This document shows, one piece after another, positions 1 to 10,081 of a stretch of DNA of 64,000 nucleotides. The DNA is from Candidatus Hermodarchaeum yapensis (GTDB lineage Archaea > Asgardarchaeota > Hermodarchaeia > Hermodarchaeales > Hermodarchaeaceae), in assembly GCA_016840405.1 (NCBI GenBank), contig JAEOSK010000002.1, positions 32,001 to 96,000 on the forward strand, read 5' to 3'. The first letter of the stretch is position 1. Each line of letters opens with the position of its first letter. The position numbers were made by a program, and so were the translations under genes. The notes under the pieces were generated by a model that saw only the letters and a list, made by a program, of their open reading frames with translations, was not told the origin of the DNA and searched no databases.

Positions 1-330
1 AATCACTTCGGTTCCCTGGCTAGGAACCATGGACTCAATGACTGCATAAGCCCAGGGACTCGGTTGCATCAGAGCAATTCCTTCGGGTTGATTTTCCTTT
101 AGCTGAGTTCTCACAATGACATTTCCTACCTTTGAGCTAACTTCAATGAAATTGCCCTCTTTGATACCTAATCGTTGTGCATCTCGAACTGAAATCGTAA
201 TACGGGCCGCCACTTTTTCATATTCTTTGGATAGGGTACCTTGACCAGCTTGGACTTCGTCAACTTCAAGTGTACGCGCAAGTAATAATCGTACTTCGAG
301 CTGTGGGTAGAGAAAATCACGTAACGCCAT
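1..330 (-). CDS. fwdD: Molybdopterin dinucleotide-binding protein, FwdD-like (runs off window edge)
   Basis: Not in ORF track; manual translation from ATG at 330: MALRDFLYPQLEVRLLLARTLEVDEVQ...SKEYEKVAARITISVRDAQRLGIKEGNFIEVSSKVGNVIVR...PEGIALMQPSPWA, matching the FwdD pattern. Confidence 0.7.
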   Translation of the reverse strand, partial: MALRDFLYPQLEVRLLLARTLEVDEVQAGQGTLSKEYEKVAARITISVRDAQRLGIKEGNFIEVSSKVGNVIVRTQLKENQPEGIALMQPSPWAYAVIESMVPSQGTEVI

Positions 331-370
331 CACTTGTCACACACCGAGTATATGGTACTATGCCTTCATA

Positions 371-518
371 TTTCTTATTTTTTGGCATGGGATAAAATTT
401 GAAAATAATAGAGCACCCTGTTGATGTTCGAATATCAGCTAAGATAACGGTACTAAGTTTCAAGAAGAGTAAGCGCTATTCCGAGAAAAAAGTTCAGTAA
501 GGCTAAGTATTGTGTGTA
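371..518 (+). repeat. Left-end repeat copy 1 (148 bp)
   Basis: Ungapped manual alignment to 1837-1984, about 120/148 identical. Confidence 0.9.
481..518 (+). repeat. 38-bp internal site copy 1
   Basis: CCGAGAAAAAAGTTCAGTAAGGCTAAGTATTGTGTGTA aligns with four other copies. Confidence 0.75.
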
Positions 519-597
519 AAGAAGCATCGATTATAGATTTTGCCAATAAAATAAATTGAAGTACGAATTCGAAAAAAGGGAGAATCACAGATTTTAA

Positions 598-1158
598 TCA
601 TTCATTCTTGCATGGATTCTTCGATTTTTCTCCCAATTTAAATTGTTTGATTTTATAGAACAACATGACCGCCAGTGCAACTAGGGTTGCTAATATACAA
701 AGATTACCAAGATTCCAAAAGATGATCACGAATTCGTTAATGGTAAAACGCCATCCCATAAATCCCCAAAGGCTTGAAGACCGGAAGGAGAGTCCAGCGA
801 AACCTCCAATTGAATACGACACAATAGCGAGAAATACTGATAAGATTATGATACCCTTTCCATATTCGGGGTTCTTCCTGTAAAGGTGGACGAAAATCAG
901 AATGGCTAGTTGTGCGCATAGGACATAACCGCCCACCATTATGATTAACTCATACGGAATATAGGAGATGCTTAAGATGATCTGGCGCAGAATTATGGAG
1001 ATGCGAAAGATGATCTGCTGTATGTGAAAGATGATCTGCTGCGGAATCATTCCTGAAACAACTATTATCCAGAGGATGGTGACGACACAGGCTAGGATGA
1101 GTGACATCAACACTATTTTTAGGAACTTGCGTTTTGCATTATTCATTCGACTTCCCAT
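598..1158 (-). CDS. Hypothetical membrane protein (~4 TM) with short internal QQIIF repeats
   Basis: ORF track; hydrophobic segments. Confidence 0.65.
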   Translation of the reverse strand: MGSRMNNAKRKFLKIVLMSLILACVVTILWIIVVSGMIPQQIIFHIQQIIFRISIILRQIILSISYIPYELIIMVGGYVLCAQLAILIFVHLYRKNPEYGKGIIILSVFLAIVSYSIGGFAGLSFRSSSLWGFMGWRFTINEFVIIFWNLGNLCILATLVALAVMLFYKIKQFKLGEKSKNPCKNE

Positions 1159-1159
1159 T

Positions 1160-1627
1160 TTATATCACTAACATTAACACAACAAATCCATCCGAGGATG
1201 CCGTAACCATATAGTTTTGGAGGATATGAAGAGTCAGCGTCATTTCAATCAATCTACTCCTCCACATATGTTTCTCGCTGTACCGATAGGGTTCGTTGTA
1301 CTCGCCGCCCTTGGCTTCCAACCAAAGCAGGTGGTGGTTCCAGCAATAGCAAAGCCTCCATTCAAACAGATCATAACCATCTTCAATCCTATAGTAACCA
1401 AGCGTGTAGGTTGTATTCCATATGGCACTCTTAATCGGAGCGTTGTACTTGTTTTTGATAGTAGACGGAAGAATATCTTGAGTCGAAACTAATACTCGAA
1501 AAGATTGTCTTTGTACTGAAGTAAAAGAAGCAAGTAGGTGCAGTATTATAATTACCGCGAATAGGTAAAGTTGTATGATTGGTGCTGTCTTGAATACCGC
1601 TTTATTCGGGTAGACAGCAGATTGCAC
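1160..1627 (-). CDS. Hypothetical protein, N-terminal hydrophobic helix, aromatic-rich
   Basis: ORF track; GGGGGAG upstream of GTG. Confidence 0.5.
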   Translation of the reverse strand: MQSAVYPNKAVFKTAPIIQLYLFAVIIILHLLASFTSVQRQSFRVLVSTQDILPSTIKNKYNAPIKSAIWNTTYTLGYYRIEDGYDLFEWRLCYCWNHHLLWLEAKGGEYNEPYRYSEKHMWRSRLIEMTLTLHILQNYMVTASSDGFVVLMLVI

Positions 1628-1706
1628 TTAACTCCCCTGAACATGAGAAGATAGCAATTCGAAGTACAAAAACACTCGTATTCACAGCTAGGAGCTAGAT
1701 GTTTTT

Positions 1707-1744
1707 CTGACGAAAAATTTTAGTAAGGCTTGGATTTGTAAGTT
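1707..1744 (+). repeat. 38-bp internal site copy 2
   Basis: CTGACGAAAAATTTTAGTAAGGCTTGGATTTGTAAGTT. Confidence 0.75.
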
Positions 1745-1804
1745 CAAACTAATTATTAGTTGATTAATTGAATTTGCTATACATTAGATGTAAACATATA
1801 ATTA

Positions 1805-1846
1805 CAGGAAAATATACCTCAATGTTGATTAAAATATTTCTTATTT
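1805..1846 (+). repeat. Right-end repeat copy 1 (42 bp)
   Basis: 36/42 identical, ungapped, to 8577-8618. Confidence 0.85.
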
Positions 1847-1984
1847 TTTGACAGAGCATAAGATATGAAAATAATAGAGTACCCTGTTGCTGTTCGAATA
1901 TCAGTTAAGAATACGGGACTATGTTTCGCGTAGAGTAAGCGCTATTCTGAGGAAAAATTTCAGTGAGCTCTGATTTTGTGAGTA
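1837..1984 (+). repeat. Left-end repeat copy 2, including 38-bp site copy 3 at 1947-1984
   Basis: Matches 371-518. Confidence 0.9.
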
Positions 1985-2304
1985 TTAAATCTTTTACACT
2001 CACAGGTTAACATAATAGAAAAACGAATAAAATAATCAAACTCTTAGGGAATACTCATCTTTAGTAAATATATGTCTGACTGAAACTCCTGCTGGTTCCT
2101 CCTTACTAAGGTCCAACGACTTGCAGTACTCTCTATTTGTTGAGTATTTTTTTGAATCCATCACACAACTCAGGGTTGCGGAGTATAACTCTGATTGTCG
2201 CAACTGAATCTGATAGATATTTGATTTCGTAGCGATTGGTTTTACGGAAAACCCTGGAAAGCATTTCGTAGTCTGGAGTATTACGCCATAAATACATGAG
2301 AACC

Positions 2305-2336
2305 AAAAAAAGAAAAGAAGGGAGGCCAAGCCTCCC
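2305..2336 (-). terminator. Hairpin plus U-tract after 2347..2835
   Basis: GGGAGGC-TTG-GCCTCCC followed by TTCTTTTCTTTTTTT on minus strand. Confidence 0.7.
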
Positions 2337-2346
2337 AAAAATGCAA

Positions 2347-2835
2347 TCACTCAGTTACAATAAGGGTTTCAATAAAGACCAGCACAGGTTCGTGTCCGAT
2401 ATAAAGCTCGACTCGCCAGTCATACTCGCCGGGTGTGAAGTAGTCCGCTTCGAAAATTATATAGTAAATGAACGCGTGATAAGGTCCTGGTAACTCTGGG
2501 TCATAGTAGTCTTTATCGTTGAAAACAAAGTGTTTGTTCTTAAGATCGATTTCCGTGTCGTCAATGAATAGCTTCGCTTCAAAAGGTCGCCATTCTGAGA
2601 GAAAATTACTCGGAATACCAAAGCAGCCGTGCCATACGTTACTTTGTTTACTAGCACTAATTTCCATACTAACCCACGGATGAATACGTTGGCCATGGCT
2701 CTCTATCCAATCTACAAACTCCCACGGACCATATTGTTTTGCTTGCACGGATTGTAGACAGGGGAGCACGCAGAACACGAGCAAACACACCAGACTTACT
2801 TTTAGCAACTGTTTCTGTTTCATTGAAATTTCCAC
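2347..2835 (-). CDS. Secreted hypothetical protein
   Basis: Signal peptide MKQKQLLKVSLVCLL...VQA; beta-rich mature part. Confidence 0.7.
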   Translation of the reverse strand: MEISMKQKQLLKVSLVCLLVFCVLPCLQSVQAKQYGPWEFVDWIESHGQRIHPWVSMEISASKQSNVWHGCFGIPSNFLSEWRPFEAKLFIDDTEIDLKNKHFVFNDKDYYDPELPGPYHAFIYYIIFEADYFTPGEYDWRVELYIGHEPVLVFIETLIVTE

Positions 2836-2948
2836 TCCAATTGTACGCCACTTCGTGGCGTCGAGTTAAAGTATGATATATATCGTATATAAGAGTTAGA
2901 GGTTTTTTTCTCTACACGCCGTTTTACTTAGATAAACATTTAACCATC

Positions 2949-2986
2949 AGATAAAAAAAGCCCAGTAAGGCTTGGGTTTATGAGTA
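2949..2986 (+). repeat. 38-bp internal site copy 4 (partial extra copy at 3041-3058)
   Basis: AGATAAAAAAAGCCCAGTAAGGCTTGGGTTTATGAGTA. Confidence 0.75.
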
Positions 2987-3106
2987 GTGTCTTTAGTGTT
3001 AGTGGCGATTTCTTCTTTCGCCACATAAGATGAGCGTTGCGTGATTCTGTGAGTAAAAGCATATCGGATGTCTTTGACCCACTTCTTTTAGTTTTTATTG
3101 GATTAT

Positions 3107-4063
3107 TCAAGGCTTCTTCCTGATAACCCCTGAGAAACCCATTAAGATTAATCCGATTAGGGAAATAAGCAAGGCTACCCCGGATAAAATGAGTGGAAGT
3201 GGATTCTCAGGCGTCATCCAGGGGTATCGAGGGCTTCCAGTGACCCCGGATAAATAGTATGTGAAGTAAAAAAATACTGCCAAGAGTATTCCCATTATGC
3301 ATACGGTGATACCACTCCACCGCATGATTGTACCAATTAGTGTAAAATCTCTTTTGAAGTAGAAATCTGACTCTATTGGTTCAAGTGAATGATAGAATCT
3401 TAGTATCCCTAAGACTGCTGCTCCAAATATGGACACAATTTGTAGTATTGGTAGAAAATAACCTAATGAGAATACAGATATTGGGAGAAAGTACCACGAA
3501 CCAAATGCAATTGTAAGGATACCTGCAATTATGAAAAAGGTAGTAGTAGTCTTTTGAATCGAATGGGATTTCGAATTAATTGGTATCTTCCTAAAAGCTA
3601 TTCCCCAGATTACCAAACCAAACCCGATTAGGAGATTAAGGGCTAAAAGCGTGTACAATTCGGAGAAAATGAAGATAATGAAAGCCGGTTGTGTAAGTAT
3701 TGTTGGCAACCAGAATTGGAAAGAAAGAAATAGTGCCGTAATTGTAATTCCTGTAAACAGGATAGAATAGCCAGTAACAAACAGGGCTATTTCAGACTGA
3801 TAAATTCTCCAATACCCCAAGAATGCGACCCCGATGAGAATTACACTTAGAAACTTCAGGAAAAAGATGACAATCCAGGTTCCTTGAGGTAACCCCATGT
3901 ATGCTCCTGCATTAAGAGAATAAGCAACAATTAGTAGGATCATTCCGATGATCCCAAGGTGAAAATAGACTCTTATCCGAGCCTCAGGCTGTTCAACAGG
4001 TTTTAGAGTTCGCTCTTTTGCACTTTCAATCGAAAATGTGATATTCGGCAAGAATTCCCGCAC
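3107..4063 (-). CDS. Multi-pass membrane hypothetical protein (~8 TM)
   Basis: ORF track; hydrophobic helices. Confidence 0.7.
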   Translation of the reverse strand: MREFLPNITFSIESAKERTLKPVEQPEARIRVYFHLGIIGMILLIVAYSLNAGAYMGLPQGTWIVIFFLKFLSVILIGVAFLGYWRIYQSEIALFVTGYSILFTGITITALFLSFQFWLPTILTQPAFIIFIFSELYTLLALNLLIGFGLVIWGIAFRKIPINSKSHSIQKTTTTFFIIAGILTIAFGSWYFLPISVFSLGYFLPILQIVSIFGAAVLGILRFYHSLEPIESDFYFKRDFTLIGTIMRWSGITVCIMGILLAVFFYFTYYLSGVTGSPRYPWMTPENPLPLILSGVALLISLIGLILMGFSGVIRKKP

Positions 4064-4131
4064 CCACAGGTTTGAAGGTGTATCGAATTAATAAGCGTTT
4101 AGAAAACAATCGTGAAGATCAAATTTCCCAA

Positions 4132-4169
4132 TTGATTAAAAAAATAAGAAAGGCCTGGTTTTGTGAGTA
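4132..4169 (+). repeat. 38-bp internal site copy 5
   Basis: TTGATTAAAAAAATAAGAAAGGCCTGGTTTTGTGAGTA. Confidence 0.65.
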
Positions 4170-4315
4170 AAAAGGCGTTAGTTATCCCAAGTTGACTATG
4201 AATTTTTTCCTCAGAGGGTTCTTCGCCCCCTTCATTACACTAATAAGGTGAATCTGAACCAGTAATGCTTGAGGGAATTGCCGGTAACGCCCCACACTAG
4301 GAGCTGACCGTCACC

Positions 4316-6274
4316 ATGGGGATGTCATACAAGAATCGTCTCCTCTTCTGTTCACTCATACTCATCTGCTTAATTGGCGCCACAAGTCTTTTTGCACCTG
4401 ACACTTCGGTAACGAGTCGGGCGGATTGGACCTATCCTAGTGGCTTCGACCCCCATGGTGGCCATATTGACCGATTGACTATGGTAGTTTATCCTTCAAA
4501 TGCGACATCGAGAGCTCTACAGGATTTGGAGGCGAACAATATCTATGCCTACGACGACAACGTCCCCCTTTCTTCCATCGATGAACTCGTAATGCAATCC
4601 AACATTGAGGTCAATACGGAACAGGGTACCGGCTTACTCTTATTCTCATTCCGCAATTGGTTCCCCGCAAACATTTCGGGGTATCGTCGTGCACTCGCTT
4701 ATGCACTAGATAAATACGTTGTATGTGAACGGTCAACCGATGGCTATGCATTGCCTATTGATGGGGTTATCCCTCTTGCCAACTCAACTTATTCGTATGA
4801 ATCCCAGATTACCGAGTATTTCTATAGTAAAGAAATTGTGAAAGCAAATGCTTCCTTGGAAGCTTGTGGTTTCCGCGATTTGGACGGTGACGGCTGGCGT
4901 GAATACGATGCAAACAACAACAGCCTATGGGACGCTGATATAGACGTTGATGATGGCAGTTGGGCTCACGATTTCTTATGGCTTCCCATATACGTATGGC
5001 TAGGTGACGATCCTGCTTTTCATGCTGCTGAAATACTGGTTGAAGGTATGGCAGAATGTGGGCTTCATGGAGCTGTTATTGAATGGGACCCATATACATA
5101 TACTGAGTGGCCCCCTGAGAAGGCCTGGTGTTCCATGTGGAATGGACCAATTTCTGAAGAGCCAAACTTCCTTTATTTATTACATACTGGTTCTTATACC
5201 AGTCAATACTTGGACTACAGTAATCCAGAGTATGATGTAAACGTCACTCTCATGTACGGGGCTTCAACGAAACTAGAGGTTCGAGACTGGGCCTGGAACT
5301 GTTCTCAGATTCTTCTCCAGGATATGCCAATCATCCCGTGCTATAACGATGTCATCACCCAAGCTTACTGGACCGATCTGTGGGAGGGCTATGTGAATAT
5401 GCTGGGGGTCAATCGGTTGGGGAATAATCCCTGGACCTTTACCCACCTCCGCCTTAAGGATGAAGCGGGTGGTCCATTTGGTCCCTACCCCACAGAATAC
5501 CTTTGTGCCCTTACTGAGGGGATGGATTCTACGAATATTCGAGTATCCAGCAGTCGTTACGCGGATCGGGTGTTTATGAATGTGTATAGTCGTTTATGGC
5601 AGATGGATCCCCTCACCTGGGAGGAAGTCCCTGACCTCGCATACGACTGGATGATTGAACCCACTGAGCCTTCCGGGGATATCCGCTTGGGACAGAAGTT
5701 CACCTTCCACCTTTATGAGAACGTAACCTGGCATGATGGGACGCTTTTCACTGCTCAGGATGTTGCATTCAGTTTTAATCATATTTGGAAAGGGATGAGT
5801 AGTTGGGAAGGCGGTTTCTATACAACTGACCCTGTCGATAATATCTATCGCATCGACACCCCTGACGATTATACTGTTGTCATTTACACCAACCAAACTG
5901 GATACTTGGAATTTTATAAAGGCACACATCACTATATCCTGCCAAAACATATTTGGGAACAACATCTATGGAATGGAACCGACTCTCTCATGGATTGGGA
6001 GCCTTCAACACCACAGGATTTGGTAGGAACTGGCCCGTTTCGTTGGGTGAATCGAGTTCCCGGTTCGTATATCGTGTTGGATCGCCATTATAACTGGCAT
6101 TTCACTGTTGATCAGTCTCTACGAACACCAATGATTCCATGGACTCTATACATATTCATTTCTCTGGGAATTATCATTGTTCTCATCCAGATCGGGATTC
6201 TCGGATATCTCCTCAATAAGCGAAGGGCGTCTAAGACCAAACATCAATATAACCAGAAAAAGGGTGACGCCTGA
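4316..6274 (+). CDS. ABC transporter solute-binding protein family 5 (DppA/OppA-like), C-terminal TM anchor
   Basis: FTFHLYENVTWHDGTLFTAQDVAFS, VGTGPF; signal peptide; TM plus basic tail. Confidence 0.85.
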   Translation: MGMSYKNRLLFCSLILICLIGATSLFAPDTSVTSRADWTYPSGFDPHGGHIDRLTMVVYPSNATSRALQDLEANNIYAYDDNVPLSSIDELVMQSNIEVNTEQGTGLLLFSFRNWFPANISGYRRALAYALDKYVVCERSTDGYALPIDGVIPLANSTYSYESQITEYFYSKEIVKANASLEACGFRDLDGDGWREYDANNNSLWDADIDVDDGSWAHDFLWLPIYVWLGDDPAFHAAEILVEGMAECGLHGAVIEWDPYTYTEWPPEKAWCSMWNGPISEEPNFLYLLHTGSYTSQYLDYSNPEYDVNVTLMYGASTKLEVRDWAWNCSQILLQDMPIIPCYNDVITQAYWTDLWEGYVNMLGVNRLGNNPWTFTHLRLKDEAGGPFGPYPTEYLCALTEGMDSTNIRVSSSRYADRVFMNVYSRLWQMDPLTWEEVPDLAYDWMIEPTEPSGDIRLGQKFTFHLYENVTWHDGTLFTAQDVAFSFNHIWKGMSSWEGGFYTTDPVDNIYRIDTPDDYTVVIYTNQTGYLEFYKGTHHYILPKHIWEQHLWNGTDSLMDWEPSTPQDLVGTGPFRWVNRVPGSYIVLDRHYNWHFTVDQSLRTPMIPWTLYIFISLGIIIVLIQIGILGYLLNKRRASKTKHQYNQKKGDA

Positions 6275-6275
6275 G

Positions 6276-8159
6276 ATGAGACACAAACCAAGAATAACCC
6301 TTTGGGTAGGTGTGGTTTTTTTTTGTATACTCATCTTCATTCAGGGCTGTTCCTCCCTCTCCTCACAACCCATTCCATCAAAGACGTGGACCTATCCCGA
6401 CGGTTATGACCCCCACGGCGGATACCTGGACCGGGTGACCTTCGTCGTCTATCCCCCCGAAGACGAACAACTGGGGCTCCAAGCCCTTCAGGCGAACATT
6501 ATCTATGCGTGGGACGAGCATGTCTCTGCCGAGAACATTACCGAGCTTGAAGCGGCACCCGGTGTGGAGGTTGCCACTGAACCCGGGGATTTGTATCGCA
6601 TGTTTGCGCTTGACTGTGGAACATTCCCCATGAATATTACCGGATACCGGCGAGCTATTGCTTTTGCCCTAGATAAATATGCTGTCGTTCAGGGGTCAAC
6701 AGATGGCCTTGGATTACCCCAAGATTGTGCAATTCCACGCGCTCTGACCAATTGGACCTATGAAAGTCAGCTCACTGAAACCTACTATGCACAAGATATC
6801 GTCAAAGCTAACGCCTCCTTGGAGGCAGCAGGTTTCCGAGACCTCACGAGTGACGGCTGGCGAGACTACGATGCGGATTTGAGTGGGACACTAACCTCTG
6901 GCGATAAGAATAGTCATGAAGTCGCGATCAGTTTTTTATATACAGGACATATTCCCTTGACCAATGCTATCACATTGGCAATAGAAGGATTGGCTAAGTG
7001 TGGTATTCGTGCTTATACCGTCCCTTGGGACCCTTACGATCCTATTGGACGATATTATGATGTAGGGACTCATACAATCAATCTTAAGGAATCCGGGGAT
7101 CTGTTTTTGTTGTATCACTTTTTCCATAGTTCCACAGGTGCCAACGAATGGTATTTTGGAGGCTGGAGGAACGACACTTACAATCAATACGCTGAGAACC
7201 TGATGGCTGCACGAACCAAAGAGGAGGTTCAGTACTGGACCTGGAAATGTCAGGAGATTCTTTGGTATGAACAGCCCATGATTGTCTGCTACAACGACGT
7301 CTTTACCAATGCTTATCGAACGGACATCTGGGAAGACTACATCAACATGCAAGGTCGGAACCGGATCGGGAACGGCTACAGCCTCGTGCACATCAAGCTC
7401 AAGGAAGAAGCAGGCGGTCCCTTCGGGTGTTTCCCTACCGAGTATATCATGAGCCTGAACGAAGGGCTAGATACGACCAACTATCTACGGAGCAATTCAG
7501 AATACACAAAAACGGTATTCCAGCTCGTCTACGAGAGACTTTGGACCTACTCACCCTATGATTGGACCCCCCAGCCGTCACTCGCCTATGCTTGGGAAAC
7601 GGAAGCTACTGTTGCCTCCGGGGATATCCAAGAGGGGGAGAAGTACACTTTCCATCTCTTTGAGAATGCCACCTGGCACGATGGAACTCCGGTCACTGCC
7701 GATGATGTGGCATTTAGTGTGTCACTGGGATTACAAGATCCGTACAACGCGGAAAACTATCAACACGTTTACAAGACCAACATTGTCGATAACATGACGA
7801 TTGAAATCTTCACCAACGCAACGGGCTTCTTCGAGTGGACACGGGCCACGGGTTTTACCGTCTATCCCGCACACATCTGGTCACTCCCATCTAGCATCTT
7901 CTCGTGGGTTCCAACCGTGCCTGAACTGGTGGGGTCCGGACCCTACATCTTCGCTGCCTATGTCCAAGGGCAATATGTGGTGTTGGACCGCAATCCTGAG
8001 TGGCACTTTGCTGTATCACAACCTCCACGCACTCCATGTCCTGTAACAGTTGATTGCTTTTGGTGTTATCCTTTGCTCTTGGGGATCATCATTATTCAAG
8101 TTTGCATCTTAGTGTATTTGGTTAATCGGCGTCGCAGTAGGGACGCTTCCAAGAAATGA
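6276..8159 (+). CDS. ABC solute-binding protein family 5, paralog of upstream gene
   Basis: TWHDGTPVTADDVAFS, VGSGPY; start moved to ATG 6276. Confidence 0.85.
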   Translation: MRHKPRITLWVGVVFFCILIFIQGCSSLSSQPIPSKTWTYPDGYDPHGGYLDRVTFVVYPPEDEQLGLQALQANIIYAWDEHVSAENITELEAAPGVEVATEPGDLYRMFALDCGTFPMNITGYRRAIAFALDKYAVVQGSTDGLGLPQDCAIPRALTNWTYESQLTETYYAQDIVKANASLEAAGFRDLTSDGWRDYDADLSGTLTSGDKNSHEVAISFLYTGHIPLTNAITLAIEGLAKCGIRAYTVPWDPYDPIGRYYDVGTHTINLKESGDLFLLYHFFHSSTGANEWYFGGWRNDTYNQYAENLMAARTKEEVQYWTWKCQEILWYEQPMIVCYNDVFTNAYRTDIWEDYINMQGRNRIGNGYSLVHIKLKEEAGGPFGCFPTEYIMSLNEGLDTTNYLRSNSEYTKTVFQLVYERLWTYSPYDWTPQPSLAYAWETEATVASGDIQEGEKYTFHLFENATWHDGTPVTADDVAFSVSLGLQDPYNAENYQHVYKTNIVDNMTIEIFTNATGFFEWTRATGFTVYPAHIWSLPSSIFSWVPTVPELVGSGPYIFAAYVQGQYVVLDRNPEWHFAVSQPPRTPCPVTVDCFWCYPLLLGIIIIQVCILVYLVNRRRSRDASKK

Positions 8160-8194
8160 CAAATCTAAACTTGTGTTTAATGGGAGTCGAGAGA

Positions 8195-8359
8195 TTATTT
8201 TAATTTATTGCGGTGGGGTTCGGCGTAAAAGTTCATGACGCAGCAGAAAGGGTGAAAGGTTTCAGAATGGGTAACGCCTTCGGGGATGAAATAGGATTTC
8301 CCGGGATTCAACTCATGGGTCATGCCACTGATGGTGAGTGTAAAGGAGCCTTCGACGGT
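8195..8359 (-). pseudogene. 3' remnant of cupin-domain gene
   Basis: TVEGSFTLTISGMTHELNPGKSYFIPEGVTHS...FYAEPHR*, preceded by in-frame stop, no start. Confidence 0.6.
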
Positions 8360-8548
8360 TCACGGGGCCCCCAGCTCACTTGCTGGAATCAGTATCAACG
8401 TCGTGTCTGGAAGAACGGTTAAGGAGAAAGAATTCAATTTTATTTATGGGATTGGAAAAGAGTGATGAACCGTACTGATAACGTGGTGATCGCACTGTTC
8501 ATTTCTGGCGTGTGTGTTGCGGTGGAGAATCACCATCAAACGGCTGAA

Positions 8549-8618
8549 AATATTCCTCAGGTGCAAGAATATACCTCAGGAAAATATACCTGAGTGGTTA
8601 TTGAAATGTTTCTTATTT
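8549..8618 (+). repeat. Right-end repeat copy 2 with three tandem AATATWCCTSAG sites
   Basis: Sites at 8549-8560, 8568-8579, 8583-8594; core 8609-8618. Confidence 0.8.
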
Positions 8619-8705
8619 CCATCACTCAATCACAAAGCATAATAAGCCAAAATTGGAAGCCAAGCCAGAGACAACACCTAGATTTCCATTCGGAGACGAC
8701 TTAAC

Positions 8706-9392
8706 GTGACTTATGCGTACGCCTATCGGCCCTTGAGGCCGTATATGACATATACGCTCATTCTCCTTAATACCTTCATTCATCTCATGCAATACGTCAT
8801 ACCAATGATAACCACAGTCTTTACCATGGTTCCCGCTAATATCATTGTGGGTCAAGCACTCATCACGTTGGTAACGAGTACTTTCCTTCATGCCGATTTT
8901 TTCCATCTTTTTATTAACATGTACTTTCTCTTCATCTTCGGAACCGTGGTCGAGGGAGAAATGCATCCTTTCTCCTACTTTGCTCTCTATCTCGTAGCCG
9001 GAATCTTCGGAAGCCTCGGACACGTCCTCATTACTGCAACTTTGGGAGTTATCTTTGATCCAATGGGTATTGGTATTGGTATTCCCGCTCTCGGTGCCTC
9101 TGGTGCCATTTTTGGTGTCATGGCGGCGTACGCCTACCTCCTCCCACGTCGTCCTCTTGGGGTCTATAGGGATGGTGGACGAACCACAGCCGCCTGGAGT
9201 ATTATCATCATCTATTTCTTCCTTGAACTCTTCCAGATGTTTCTCTCATTCGGAAGTGGCGTAGCCCATGGAGCTCATGTTTTCGGTTTTGTTGGGGGAT
9301 TCATCTTCGCTCTTTTCTATCGGTTTATTCGCATTCAAATGAATAAACGGAGACCTGAAGTCCAATATGATCCCTACGAATACTATGTGTGA
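8706..9392 (+). CDS. Rhomboid intramembrane serine protease
   Basis: FLHADFFHLFINM, GASGA, AHVFGFVGG. Confidence 0.92.
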   Translation: MTYAYAYRPLRPYMTYTLILLNTFIHLMQYVIPMITTVFTMVPANIIVGQALITLVTSTFLHADFFHLFINMYFLFIFGTVVEGEMHPFSYFALYLVAGIFGSLGHVLITATLGVIFDPMGIGIGIPALGASGAIFGVMAAYAYLLPRRPLGVYRDGGRTTAAWSIIIIYFFLELFQMFLSFGSGVAHGAHVFGFVGGFIFALFYRFIRIQMNKRRPEVQYDPYEYYV

Positions 9393-10081
9393 TTGAAGAA
9401 AAGAGAACGATGAAGTTGAGTAGCACGGTGGCTTTAATCCCTGTCCGTTTTCTTCCTGAAGCAAAACACCGTCTCGCAGAAAATTGGGATACAACAAGCC
9501 GTAGAACGCTTGTTCAAGCCATGCTTGCAGATGTTCTCAAAGCCTTAGAGTTTTCAAAAGCAATTGGTCAGCGTATAATCGTAACCGGCGATGATAACTT
9601 CTCCCCTATATATTCTCAAAATAACGTTGAAACATATAGAAGTACAGTTAAAGGACTTAATTCTGAGCTCATGGCCTACATTCAACTTCTGACAGAAAAT
9701 GGAGTTAAAGATGTCGTCATTATCTTGGCAGACTTACCATTACTCACCGATGTTGCATTGGACGAAATCGTTACGATTGGGAAGCGTACTCAAAGACCTG
9801 TGATTGCCCAAGACTGGAAAGGCACGGGAACAAACATTCTCTTCAGCCTCCTCCCACTTCCCATTGAATTATGCTTTGGAAATCAGAGTCTTCAAAACTT
9901 TAGAACTAGATTAGAAGAAGCGAATCTGATACCCATCATCTATCATTCAGTTGAATCCGCATTAGACATCGATGATGACTTAGCAATCGAACGATTCTTG
10001 TTCCTTTCTCGCCTTGACAAGAAACGACAACAAACACACACCTATCGTCTATTAGACCGTGAAGAAAAAAAGAGGAAGTAA
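9389..10081 (+). CDS. cofC: 2-phospho-L-lactate/PEP guanylyltransferase (F420 biosynthesis)
   Basis: ALIPV..AKHRL, AMLADVL, ADLPLL, GTGTN, LDIDD. Confidence 0.8.
   Translation: MIEEKRTMKLSSTVALIPVRFLPEAKHRLAENWDTTSRRTLVQAMLADVLKALEFSKAIGQRIIVTGDDNFSPIYSQNNVETYRSTVKGLNSELMAYIQLLTENGVKDVVIILADLPLLTDVALDEIVTIGKRTQRPVIAQDWKGTGTNILFSLLPLPIELCFGNQSLQNFRTRLEEANLIPIIYHSVESALDIDDDLAIERFLFLSRLDKKRQQTHTYRLLDREEKKRK

What the first reader, a model, noticed from the sequence alone, without database searches (positions are those of the whole stretch)
371..8618. Two non-autonomous units stacked in tandem at one non-tRNA site
Seen: core TTTCTTATTT at 371, 1837 and 8609. Sequence right of core 1 matches that right of core 2 (about 120/148, ungapped). 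Sequence left of core 2 matches that left of core 3 (36/42). Outside cores 1 and 3 the similarity stops. This is the attL / junction / attR geometry expected from serial site-specific integration, here between the divergent fwdD-like and rhomboid genes. Inference: a recombinase supplied in trans, since none is encoded inside.
Basis: partly seen in the sequence, partly recalled or inferred. Interest (0 to 1): 0.8.

Follow-up and report, generated by a model that had tools for sequence, protein, structure and literature searches.

The report
Two integrase-less inserts stacked in Asgard genome
An Asgard (Promethearchaeota) archaeon carries 8.2 kb of strain-specific genes inserted as two stacked units between two neighbouring genes, bounded by three copies of a 10-base site with matching arms, the scar pattern of serial site-specific integration; no recombinase gene lies inside and movement itself has not been seen.

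Summary
The core TTTCTTATTT stands at 371, 1837 and 8609. The sequence right of cores 1 and 2 matches (151 nt, 81%; BLAST 134 nt, 85%), and so does the sequence left of cores 2 and 3 (36/42).

Ten congeneric genomes have the fwdD-like and rhomboid genes only about 135-155 nt apart. The window's left flank, one core and right flank align colinearly with that spacer, so 381-8618 is an insertion with attL / attP-like junction / attR geometry. Two other congeners carry different inserts in the same spacer. In the two nearest relatives the contigs end there.

The cargo is five orphan genes (two clearly membrane proteins), two solute-binding paralogs and a small ORF; no recombinase or transposase was detected. 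The arms are absent from 14 congeners. One more left-arm copy lies inside another 1.8-kb insert on contig C57, which has a different 12-nt flanking repeat.

Best reading (about 0.55): two non-autonomous integrative units joined by a recombinase acting in trans, like bacterial CIME accretion and the short AT-rich att elements of Atabeyarchaeia. No excision junction, free circle or partner integrase was found. Short-homology insertion at a hotspot remains a live rival.

Two other first-stage notes of this scan cover the same stretch (38-nt repeat array). Interest is moderate.

The parts
1..333 (-). 5' part of the FwdD-like (molybdopterin-binding) gene; left host flank
   Evidence: Pfam PF01568, NCBIfam FwdD. 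It is 66-90% identical to congeners at the DNA level.
334..370 (.). Host left arm (B) between the fwdD start codon and core 1
   Evidence: Colinear with the spacer of ten congeners.
371..380 (+). Core 1 (attL core)
   Evidence: A Logan contig of run X4 ends exactly at 380.
381..518 (+). Right-of-core arm (P'), copy 1; includes the gene-upstream element D2a at 471-524
   Evidence: 81-85% identical to 1847-1984; D2 profile hit.
598..1158 (-). Unit 1 cargo: orphan membrane protein, 186 aa
   Evidence: No Pfam, PHROG or NCBIfam match. Homologs at 87%, 71% and 68% identity occur only in metagenome or MAG contigs. Among the 18 other genomes of the order there are only two weak partial matches, 37% and 50% identity.
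1160..1627 (-). Unit 1 cargo: 155-aa orphan ORF of doubtful coding status; 1161-1610 is missing in a ~93% identical variant
   Evidence: Joint 1160->1611 in contigs of runs X6, X7 and X8; no family hit.
1779..1836 (+). Left-of-core arm (P), copy at the right end of unit 1; one 12-mer AATATWCCTSAG-like site at 1811-1822
1837..1846 (+). Core 2, the attP-like junction between the units
   Evidence: An X4 contig (1654-1984, no differences) bridges it.
1847..1984 (+). Right-of-core arm (P'), copy 2; includes D2c at 1937-1990
1973..2072 (-). Copy of a ~100-nt hairpin-bearing element that precedes the HtrA-like protease gene in the genus
   Evidence: 84-95% identical in 9 congeners and twice on own contig C63; it abuts the HtrA start codon there.
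2036..4063 (-). Unit 2, low-GC half: orphan ORFs 2036-2350, 2347-2835 and 3107-4063 (the last a 318-aa polytopic membrane protein), separated by D2d (2942-2991)
   Evidence: No family hits. The only homolog of the 318-aa protein is 68% identical and metagenomic; none was found in the order. GC 0.391, in the lowest 1.7% of genome windows.
4123..4175 (+). D2e; its - strand holds an inverted 13-nt copy of core plus TTT (4139-4151), at the switch of gene orientation and GC
4316..8159 (+). Unit 2, host-like half: two tandem SBP_bac_5 paralogs (4316-6274 and 6177-8159; 42% identical) with C-terminal membrane anchors
   Evidence: Paralogs lie on own contigs C49 and C64 and in congeners at 67-72% DNA identity. 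GC 0.475.
8213..8422 (+). Small ORF and region that also follows the SBP paralogs at other loci
   Evidence: tblastx to C49:2800-2963; DNA match in G005:C214 reaching 8317.
8549..8594 (+). Three tandem 12-mers AATATWCCTSAG (8549, 8568, 8583) inside the left-of-core arm
   Evidence: Only 5 exact copies in the genome, 3 of them here; one-mismatch copies sit beside core 2 and beside the C57 arm copy.
8551..8608 (+). Left-of-core arm (P), copy at the right end of unit 2
8609..8618 (+). Core 3 (attR core)
   Evidence: An X7 contig (8147-8700, no differences) bridges it; X4 and X6 contigs break at 8638/8639.
8619..8705 (+). Host right arm (B') with the genus-conserved spacer motif at 8634-8646
   Evidence: Colinear with congeners. 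The motif is locus-specific, not genome-wide.
8706..9392 (+). Rhomboid protease gene; right host flank
   Evidence: Pfam PF01694; congeners.

Best explanation
Window 381-8618 is foreign DNA that entered the 140-nt spacer between the divergent fwdD-like and rhomboid genes by conservative recombination at a 10-nt AT-rich core.

Two related circular units each carried an attP made of a ~60-nt left arm, the core and a ~140-nt right arm. The left arm holds one to three AATATWCCTSAG sites. One unit recombined with the chromosomal core and the other with one of the resulting hybrid sites. The result is: host/core/right arm, unit 1 (1.46 kb), left arm/core/right arm, unit 2 (6.8 kb), left arm/core/host.

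Neither unit encodes a recombinase. The enzyme must come from elsewhere: an unbinned autonomous relative, the second tyrosine recombinase of the genome, or the host Xer-type enzyme.

Shown: the geometry, the empty sites, the strain-specific cargo, and the absence of any detectable recombinase gene inside. Inferred: that a site-specific recombinase did it, that the units were circles, and that they can still move. Further inference: the right arm carries a gene-upstream element (D2) that points out of the unit toward fwdD. This may replace the promoter context that the insertion displaced, and would explain why this arm is kept.
For: Geometry and significance of cores and arms.

Empty site: G001, G003, G004, G006, G007, G008, G010, G011, G013 and G014 have only ~135-155 nt between the two genes. 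The reconstructed site (310-380 + 8619-8760) aligns colinearly with eight of them, and the core falls on a T-rich stretch present once; the spacers of G001 and G007 were read directly.

Recurrent use of the spacer: G009 has a 631-nt insert between perfect 24-nt repeats (L041:4581-4604 and 5212-5235). G012 has a 1.9-kb insert between diverged repeats of the same local motif. G002 and G005 contigs end 17-21 nt before the core position.

Arms are specific to this genome: no match in 14 congeners.

Foreignness: unit 1 has GC 0.378 (0.9th percentile) and unit 2's left half 0.391 (1.7th percentile), against a genome value of 0.447. The 318-aa cargo protein has no relative in the 18 other genomes of the order, and the 186-aa protein has only weak partial matches there, 37% and 50% identity.

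No recombinase or transposase in the cargo, and no terminal inverted repeats at the unit ends.

Clustered 12-mers in the left arm resemble arm-type binding sites.

Precedents: Asgard integrated elements of 1.3-40 kb with an 11-bp AT-rich att motif, and a 2.6-kb circularisable sub-element (PMC11529989); the CIME definition and tandem accretion (PMC5704250).
Against: No recombinase is linked to the site. The genome holds only two PF00589 genes: a Xer-like gene on C16 and a 343-aa gene on the 5.3-kb contig C53, which shows no att-like sequence. No serine recombinase was found.

An attP-type pattern found only chance AT-rich hits in viral and metagenome collections.

Contig depths of the units (18-27) equal those of the flanks (18-31) in run X4, so there is no sign of abundant free circles or of many empty cells.

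The third left-arm+core copy (C57:36116-36180) is not at an element boundary. It lies 216 nt inside a 1.8-kb insert whose flanking repeat is a different 12-mer.

Inserts in G009 and G012 use neighbouring but different repeats, which a single fixed-core recombinase does not predict.

The arms are only 81-86% alike, so the events may be old and the units dead.
Confidence: 0.55

Rival explanations
1. Short-homology (Campbell-type or illegitimate) insertion at a fragile promoter spacer. Circular or linear DNA pieces that happened to share 10-24 nt with the spacer were captured by the host's own recombination or repair. No dedicated recombinase or att site is involved.
For: Flanking repeats differ from insert to insert: 10 nt here, 24 nt in G009, diverged in G012, and 12 nt on C57. 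All lie between divergent genes. No integrase is linked to the site.
Against: Two different units share both arms over 60 and 140 nt and use the identical core, and the middle junction is a clean left arm/core/right arm. Chance microhomology does not predict conserved arms or clustered 12-mers.
Confidence: 0.2
2. The cores and arms are one tier of a larger cassette-shuffling system. The same DNA-binding or recombination protein would recognise the 12-mers, the core and the 38-50 nt D2 elements, and would move promoter-bearing gene cassettes among a few intergenic hotspots of this genus.
For: D2 occurs only in this region (5 copies) and on C63 (4 copies). In congeners it separates different accessory genes upstream of the conserved HtrA-CAAX pair, and some of those genes are 84-92% identical across species. 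D2e carries an inverted 13-nt copy of core+TTT. The start of D2 resembles the reverse complement of the 12-mer.
Against: D2 always lies 49-138 nt upstream of a start codon in sense orientation, which fits a promoter or leader element just as well. The arms form no folded attC-like hairpin, with z-scores from +0.7 to -1.9. No recombinase lies beside the arrays; the Xer-like gene is 16-17 kb away in G012 and G014.
Confidence: 0.12
3. Target-specific transposition: a transposon family that duplicates a 10-nt target and prefers this sequence inserted twice, the second time into the duplicated target.
For: Three identical 10-nt repeats would also arise this way.
Against: There are no terminal inverted repeats and no transposase inside. 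The ends are asymmetric and long. The genome shows no Y1 transposase, and its ~30 TnpB-like genes lie elsewhere.
Confidence: 0.05
4. The segment is ancestral. It was lost precisely in the other species, or it grew in place by duplication of the spacer.
For: G000, G002 and G005 form the nearest group, and the state of the site in G002 and G005 is unknown. Parsimony alone therefore allows one loss.
Against: Low GC and orphan cargo; the two units share no genes; the arms are absent from all congeners. A precise loss between cores would itself be an excision.
Confidence: 0.05

Closest known systems
CIMEs (cis-mobilisable elements) and tandem accretion at ICE/IME att sites in Streptococcus and other bacteria (PMC5704250)
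   Same: Elements that keep attL and attR but have no integration genes. They are stacked head to tail at one chromosomal site by site-specific recombination, and the recombinase is supplied by a related element.
   Different: CIMEs are bacterial, usually sit at the 3' end of a tRNA or protein gene, and have a known partner ICE or IME. Here the host is an Asgard archaeon, the site is a promoter spacer between divergent genes, and no partner was found.
Integrated MGEs of Atabeyarchaeia (Yucahu-i, mini-Yucahu-i, iMGE-xvi; PMC11529989)
   Same: Asgard hosts, elements of 1.3-40 kb, and a short (11-bp) AT-rich att motif repeated at both ends. A small sub-element for which the paper lists no integrase can circularise.
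   Different: Those elements were shown to excise and circularise by reads, and the larger ones carry tyrosine integrases. There is no sequence similarity to them, and tandem stacking of two integrase-less units was not reported there.
   Same: Integrase-less elements stacked in tandem at one non-tRNA site by a host-encoded tyrosine recombinase.
   Different: The site here is not a 28-bp dif-like imperfect palindrome, and nothing links the Xer-like gene on C16 to it.
Integron gene cassettes
   Same: Small mobile units without a recombinase, inserted one after another at one site. The left-of-core sequence is conserved from unit to unit.
   Different: There is no adjacent integron integrase and no folded attC. 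The conserved sequence also extends 140 nt to the right of the core, and the units hold several genes in both orientations.

Membership tests
Non-autonomous integrative element (CIME-like) in tandem accretion | Direct repeats of an att core at both ends and at the junction, with element-type arms on the inner sides | tested here: met
Non-autonomous integrative element (CIME-like) in tandem accretion | An unoccupied site with a single core in related genomes | tested here: met
   Ten congeners
Non-autonomous integrative element (CIME-like) in tandem accretion | No integration or transfer genes inside | tested here: met
   Pfam, PHROGs and NCBIfam on all ORFs
Non-autonomous integrative element (CIME-like) in tandem accretion | A partner element or recombinase with the same att specificity | tested here: not met
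   Two PF00589 genes, neither linked to the site; no attP found in the collections. The MAG is 86% complete, so absence is not shown.
Non-autonomous integrative element (CIME-like) in tandem accretion | Excision to a circle and restoration of the empty site | tested here: inconclusive
   Only Logan contigs were available. No joint 380->8619 or circle joint is listed. Contigs break at 380 and at 8638/8639.
Integron cassette array | attC sites that fold as imperfect hairpins in single-stranded DNA | tested here: not met
   z-scores from +0.7 to -1.9 for both strands of the arms
Integron cassette array | An integron integrase with attI next to the array | tested here: not met
   None within the window flanks or on C63
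IMEX (Xer-exploiting element) | Integration at a dif-like site of two inverted ~11-nt arms around a short spacer | tested here: not met
   No inverted symmetry around the core
DDE transposon / MITE | Terminal inverted repeats next to the target duplication; many dispersed copies | tested here: not met
   No inverted repeats at the unit ends; arms occur at 2-3 loci only
IS200/IS605-type element or PATE | Subterminal hairpins, no target duplication, Y1 transposase in the genome | tested here: not met
   a 10-nt repeat is present

The most novel reading that the evidence does not exclude
The 10-nt core, the clustered 12-mers and the D2 elements are sites of one so far unknown recombination system of this Promethearchaeota genus. 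The system would capture and reshuffle promoter-bearing gene cassettes at a few spacers between divergent genes. It would be an archaeal counterpart of integrons, working without attC hairpins and without an adjacent integrase.
Probability: 0.12. Interest if true: 0.8.

Novelty: new variant of a known kind. Interest (0 to 1): 0.45.

Why it matters
Mobile elements of Asgard archaea are known from only a few genomes, and almost all described ones carry their own integrase or sit at tRNA genes. This locus shows that small integrase-less units can pile up at a promoter spacer. It also shows that the same spacer has been hit independently in at least three species, which points to recurrent insertion hotspots as a route for accessory genes (membrane and surface proteins, solute-binding proteins) into these genomes. 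The locus offers a concrete pair of junctions that can be tested by reads or PCR. It does not by itself reveal a new mechanism.

Tried and rejected
1. Paralogy between the units as a sign of gene duplication: none, apart from the two SBP genes.

2. Rfam on 1-10000: no match at E <= 1.

3. Arms in the genus: none.

4. attP-type pattern in viral and metagenome contigs: 11 hits, all chance matches of 22-38 nt in AT-rich contigs.

5. C53 integrase contig: no att-like sequence.

6. The 18-nt match of core plus arm start at C39:100076-100093: it is the start-codon region of a gene that is colinear in G005, G002 and G001, so it is not an att scar.

7. The 16-nt match at C49:8703-8718: not followed, and within chance for AT-rich words.

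8. Aloposons (PMC8813620): unrelated. They have giant genes and use tRNA sites.

9. The 186-aa cargo protein in genome contigs and viral contigs: no relatives.

The contigs holding the 87% and 68% homologs (P0004, P0002) could therefore not be inspected.

11. Read laying on Logan contigs: no contig joins 380 to 8619 and none shows a circle junction. Parts without cover in X7 and X8 say nothing. Depth figures are per contig and too coarse to detect a minority form.

12. Right flank in G002 and G005: not assembled.

13. Spacer motif at 8634-8646 as a genome-wide promoter consensus: rejected; it is locus-specific.
Full report
OBSERVATION. The 10-nt core stands at 371, 1837 and 8609 on the + strand, and once on the - strand at 4142. 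That is 4 copies against 0.43 expected in the window. The whole 2.7-Mb genome holds 19 copies on both strands. To the right of cores 1 and 2, 151 nt match at 81% without gaps; BLAST gives 134 nt at 85%, E 7e-38 against the genome. To the left of cores 2 and 3, 42 nt match at 86%. Outside core 1 there is no similarity. Outside core 3 there is only a weak 17/24 look-alike after a short gap.

HOST AND FLANKS. The window is contig C39:32001-96000 of a 77-contig, 86%-complete MAG. Ras/Roc GTPase and longin genes on C63, and the record titles of congeners, 'Promethearchaeota archaeon', place it in the Asgard archaea. The left flank is a FwdD-like gene on the - strand. The right flank is a rhomboid protease gene followed by cofC on the + strand.

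EMPTY SITES. Ten of the 14 other species of the genus have the two flank genes divergent and only about 135-155 nt apart: G001, G003, G004, G006, G007, G008, G010, G011, G013 and G014. Joining window 310-380 to 8619-8760 gives a spacer that aligns end to end with eight of them. The spacers of G001 and G007 were read directly and show the same layout. The core falls on a T-rich stretch that occurs once in each. A strongly conserved, locus-specific motif (window 8634-8646) follows about 15 nt later.

The segment 381-8618 is therefore an insertion relative to the genus. Strictly, a single precise loss in the other species is an alternative, because the state of the site in the nearest relatives is unknown. 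In G002 and G005 (90% identical in fwdD) the contigs end 17-21 nt before the core position, and the right flank is not assembled.

THE SPACER IS HIT REPEATEDLY. G009 has a 631-nt insert with a 56-aa basic ORF between perfect 24-nt repeats of the conserved spacer motif (L041:4581-4604 and 5212-5235). G012 has a 1.9-kb insert with a 413-aa ORF between diverged repeats of the same motif. Three species thus carry three different inserts in one 140-nt spacer.

CONTENT. Unit 1 (381-1836) holds a 186-aa membrane protein and a doubtful 155-aa ORF. Unit 2 (1847-8608) has two halves. The left half holds three - strand orphan ORFs, one of them a 318-aa polytopic membrane protein. The right half, on the + strand, holds two SBP_bac_5 paralogs (42% identical, with C-terminal anchors) and a small ORF that also follows SBP paralogs at other loci.

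Nothing matches a recombinase, transposase, replication or virion family in Pfam, PHROGs or NCBIfam. The two units share no genes. There are no terminal inverted repeats.

Unit 1 has GC 0.378 and the left half of unit 2 has 0.391. These are the 0.9th and 1.7th percentiles of genome windows. The SBP half is host-like at 0.475.

The 186-aa and 318-aa proteins have relatives only in a few metagenome or MAG contigs, at 87% and 68% identity. Among the 18 other genomes of the order, the 318-aa protein has no relative and the 186-aa protein has only two weak partial matches, 37% and 50% identity.

THE ARMS. Both arms are absent from the 14 congeners. In the own genome the right-of-core arm occurs only at cores 1 and 2.

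The left-of-core arm occurs at cores 2 and 3 and once more on C57 (36116-36180, 79% over 67 nt). It carries a 12-mer, AATATWCCTSAG, that has five exact copies in the genome. Three of these are clustered at 8549-8594, and one-mismatch copies lie beside core 2 and in the C57 copy.

The arms do not fold better than shuffles as single strands, with z-scores from +0.7 to -1.9. They are therefore neither attC-like nor a structured RNA, and Rfam finds nothing.

THE C57 COPY COMPLICATES THE PICTURE. It lies inside a 1.8-kb segment with two orphan ORFs. That segment is missing in G005 (90% identical flanks), and several more congeners (for example G001, G007, G009, G011) have only a short gap there. 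It again sits between divergent genes. However, the segment is flanked by a different 12-nt repeat (L036:6604-6615 and 8398-8409), and the arm+core sits 216 nt inside its right end. The arm+core module therefore travels with inserted DNA, but it is not always the boundary.

A SECOND LAYER OF REPEATS. A 38-50 nt element (D2) occurs five times in 471-4175 and four times on C63, and nowhere else in the genome. It forms the distal part of both right-of-core arms.

In congeners D2 lies between different accessory genes upstream of a conserved HtrA-CAAX gene pair. Some of those accessory genes are 84-92% identical in protein across species, whereas the conserved CAAX protease is only about 57% identical. 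D2 always lies 49-138 nt upstream of a start codon in sense orientation, so I read it as a promoter or leader element.

D2 is related to the 3' end of a ~100-nt hairpin-bearing element that precedes HtrA and is 84-95% identical across the genus. One copy of that element sits in unit 2 at 1973-2072.

In D2e the - strand reads core+TTT (4139-4151), exactly where gene orientation and GC switch. Unit 2 is therefore probably composite.

POPULATION DATA. Six runs hold 90% or more of the stretch's sampled words. Only Logan contigs could be laid. Contigs bridge core 2 (X4, 1654-1984) and core 3 (X7, 8147-8700) without differences, so those two junctions are not assembly artefacts; no listed contig bridges core 1.

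No contig joins 380 to 8619 and none shows a circle junction. One X4 contig ends exactly at 380, and X4 and X6 contigs break at 8638/8639. This is at most a weak hint of a second form sharing the flanks. Contig depths of units and flanks are alike.

A ~93% identical variant of unit 1 that lacks 1161-1610 occurs in three runs. Unit-1-like DNA therefore exists in related strains, in a context I could not see.

RECOMBINASE. The genome has two PF00589 genes: a 314-aa Xer-like gene on C16 and a 343-aa gene on the 5.3-kb contig C53. C53 has no att-like sequence. No serine recombinase and no Y1 transposase was found, and about 30 TnpB-like genes lie elsewhere.

READING. The host/core/arm, arm/core/arm, arm/core/host layout has conserved arms on two units with different cargo, and the genus shows a single-core empty site. 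This is what serial conservative site-specific integration of two related circles gives. It is what bacterial CIME accretion looks like (PMC5704250). Short AT-rich att motifs and a small circularisable sub-element for which the paper lists no integrase are documented in Asgard archaea (PMC11529989). I put this reading at 0.55.

The differing repeats at the G009, G012 and C57 inserts keep short-homology capture at hotspots alive (0.2). A wider cassette system that uses D2 and the 12-mers is possible but unproven (0.12). Transposition, or ancestral presence with loss in relatives, is unlikely (0.05 each).

VERDICT. Mobility and the trans-acting enzyme remain inferences. It is a new variant of a known kind and of moderate interest.

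Noticed in passing
window 1973-2072 (-); L035 (own C63) 5947-6045 and 6377-6475; G010, G012, G014 and others: A ~100-nt element with a 6-bp-stem hairpin is 84-95% identical across species whose genes are only ~70% identical. It abuts the start codon of the HtrA-like protease gene in at least four species, and extra copies precede other ORFs. It may be a conserved regulatory leader or promoter.
   Followed up: partly
window 471-524, 1700-1750, 1937-1990, 2942-2991, 4123-4175; L035 9-45, 1193-1240, 1924-1957, 4142-4187: The 38-50 nt D2 element is restricted to two regions of the genome. In congeners it separates species-specific accessory genes (ADH, GNAT, ACR3/ArsR and others) upstream of a conserved HtrA-CAAX pair. 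It always lies 49-138 nt upstream of a start codon.
   Followed up: partly
L036 (own C57:28000-44000) 6604-8409: A 1.8-kb insert with two orphan ORFs lies between a 4Fe-4S gene and a 642-aa gene. It is absent in G005, and other congeners have only a short gap there. It is flanked by a 12-nt direct repeat and contains a copy of the left-of-core arm plus core.
   Followed up: partly
L041 (G009:C121) 4581-5235; L029 (G012:C41) ~1700-3540: Independent inserts (631 nt with a 56-aa basic ORF; 1.9 kb with a 413-aa ORF) lie in the same fwdD-rhomboid spacer and are flanked by repeats of the conserved spacer motif.
   Followed up: partly
window 4316-6274 and 6177-8159: In the two SBP_bac_5 paralogs the N-terminal third matches the later part of the family profiles and the C-terminal third matches the beginning (Pfam and NCBIfam coordinates). 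This suggests a circularly permuted solute-binding fold with a C-terminal membrane anchor. No ABC permease or ATPase genes lie nearby.
   Followed up: no
window 1161-1610: A 450-nt presence/absence polymorphism removes the 155-aa ORF in a ~93% identical variant seen in three runs from different studies.
   Followed up: no
own genome, many contigs: There are about 30 TnpB-like (PF07282) genes, but no Y1 transposase and no serine recombinase was detected in the 86%-complete MAG.
   Followed up: no
own C39:100076-100093 (4 kb beyond the window end): An 18-nt exact match to core plus arm start lies on the - strand. It is the first six codons of a conserved 354-aa gene and is colinear in relatives, so it is probably chance or an old capture.
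   Followed up: yes
G012:C82:20881-21372 and G014:C12:27555-28043: The Xer-like recombinase gene lies 16-17 kb from the variable D2 region upstream of HtrA in two congeners. No link has been shown.
   Followed up: no
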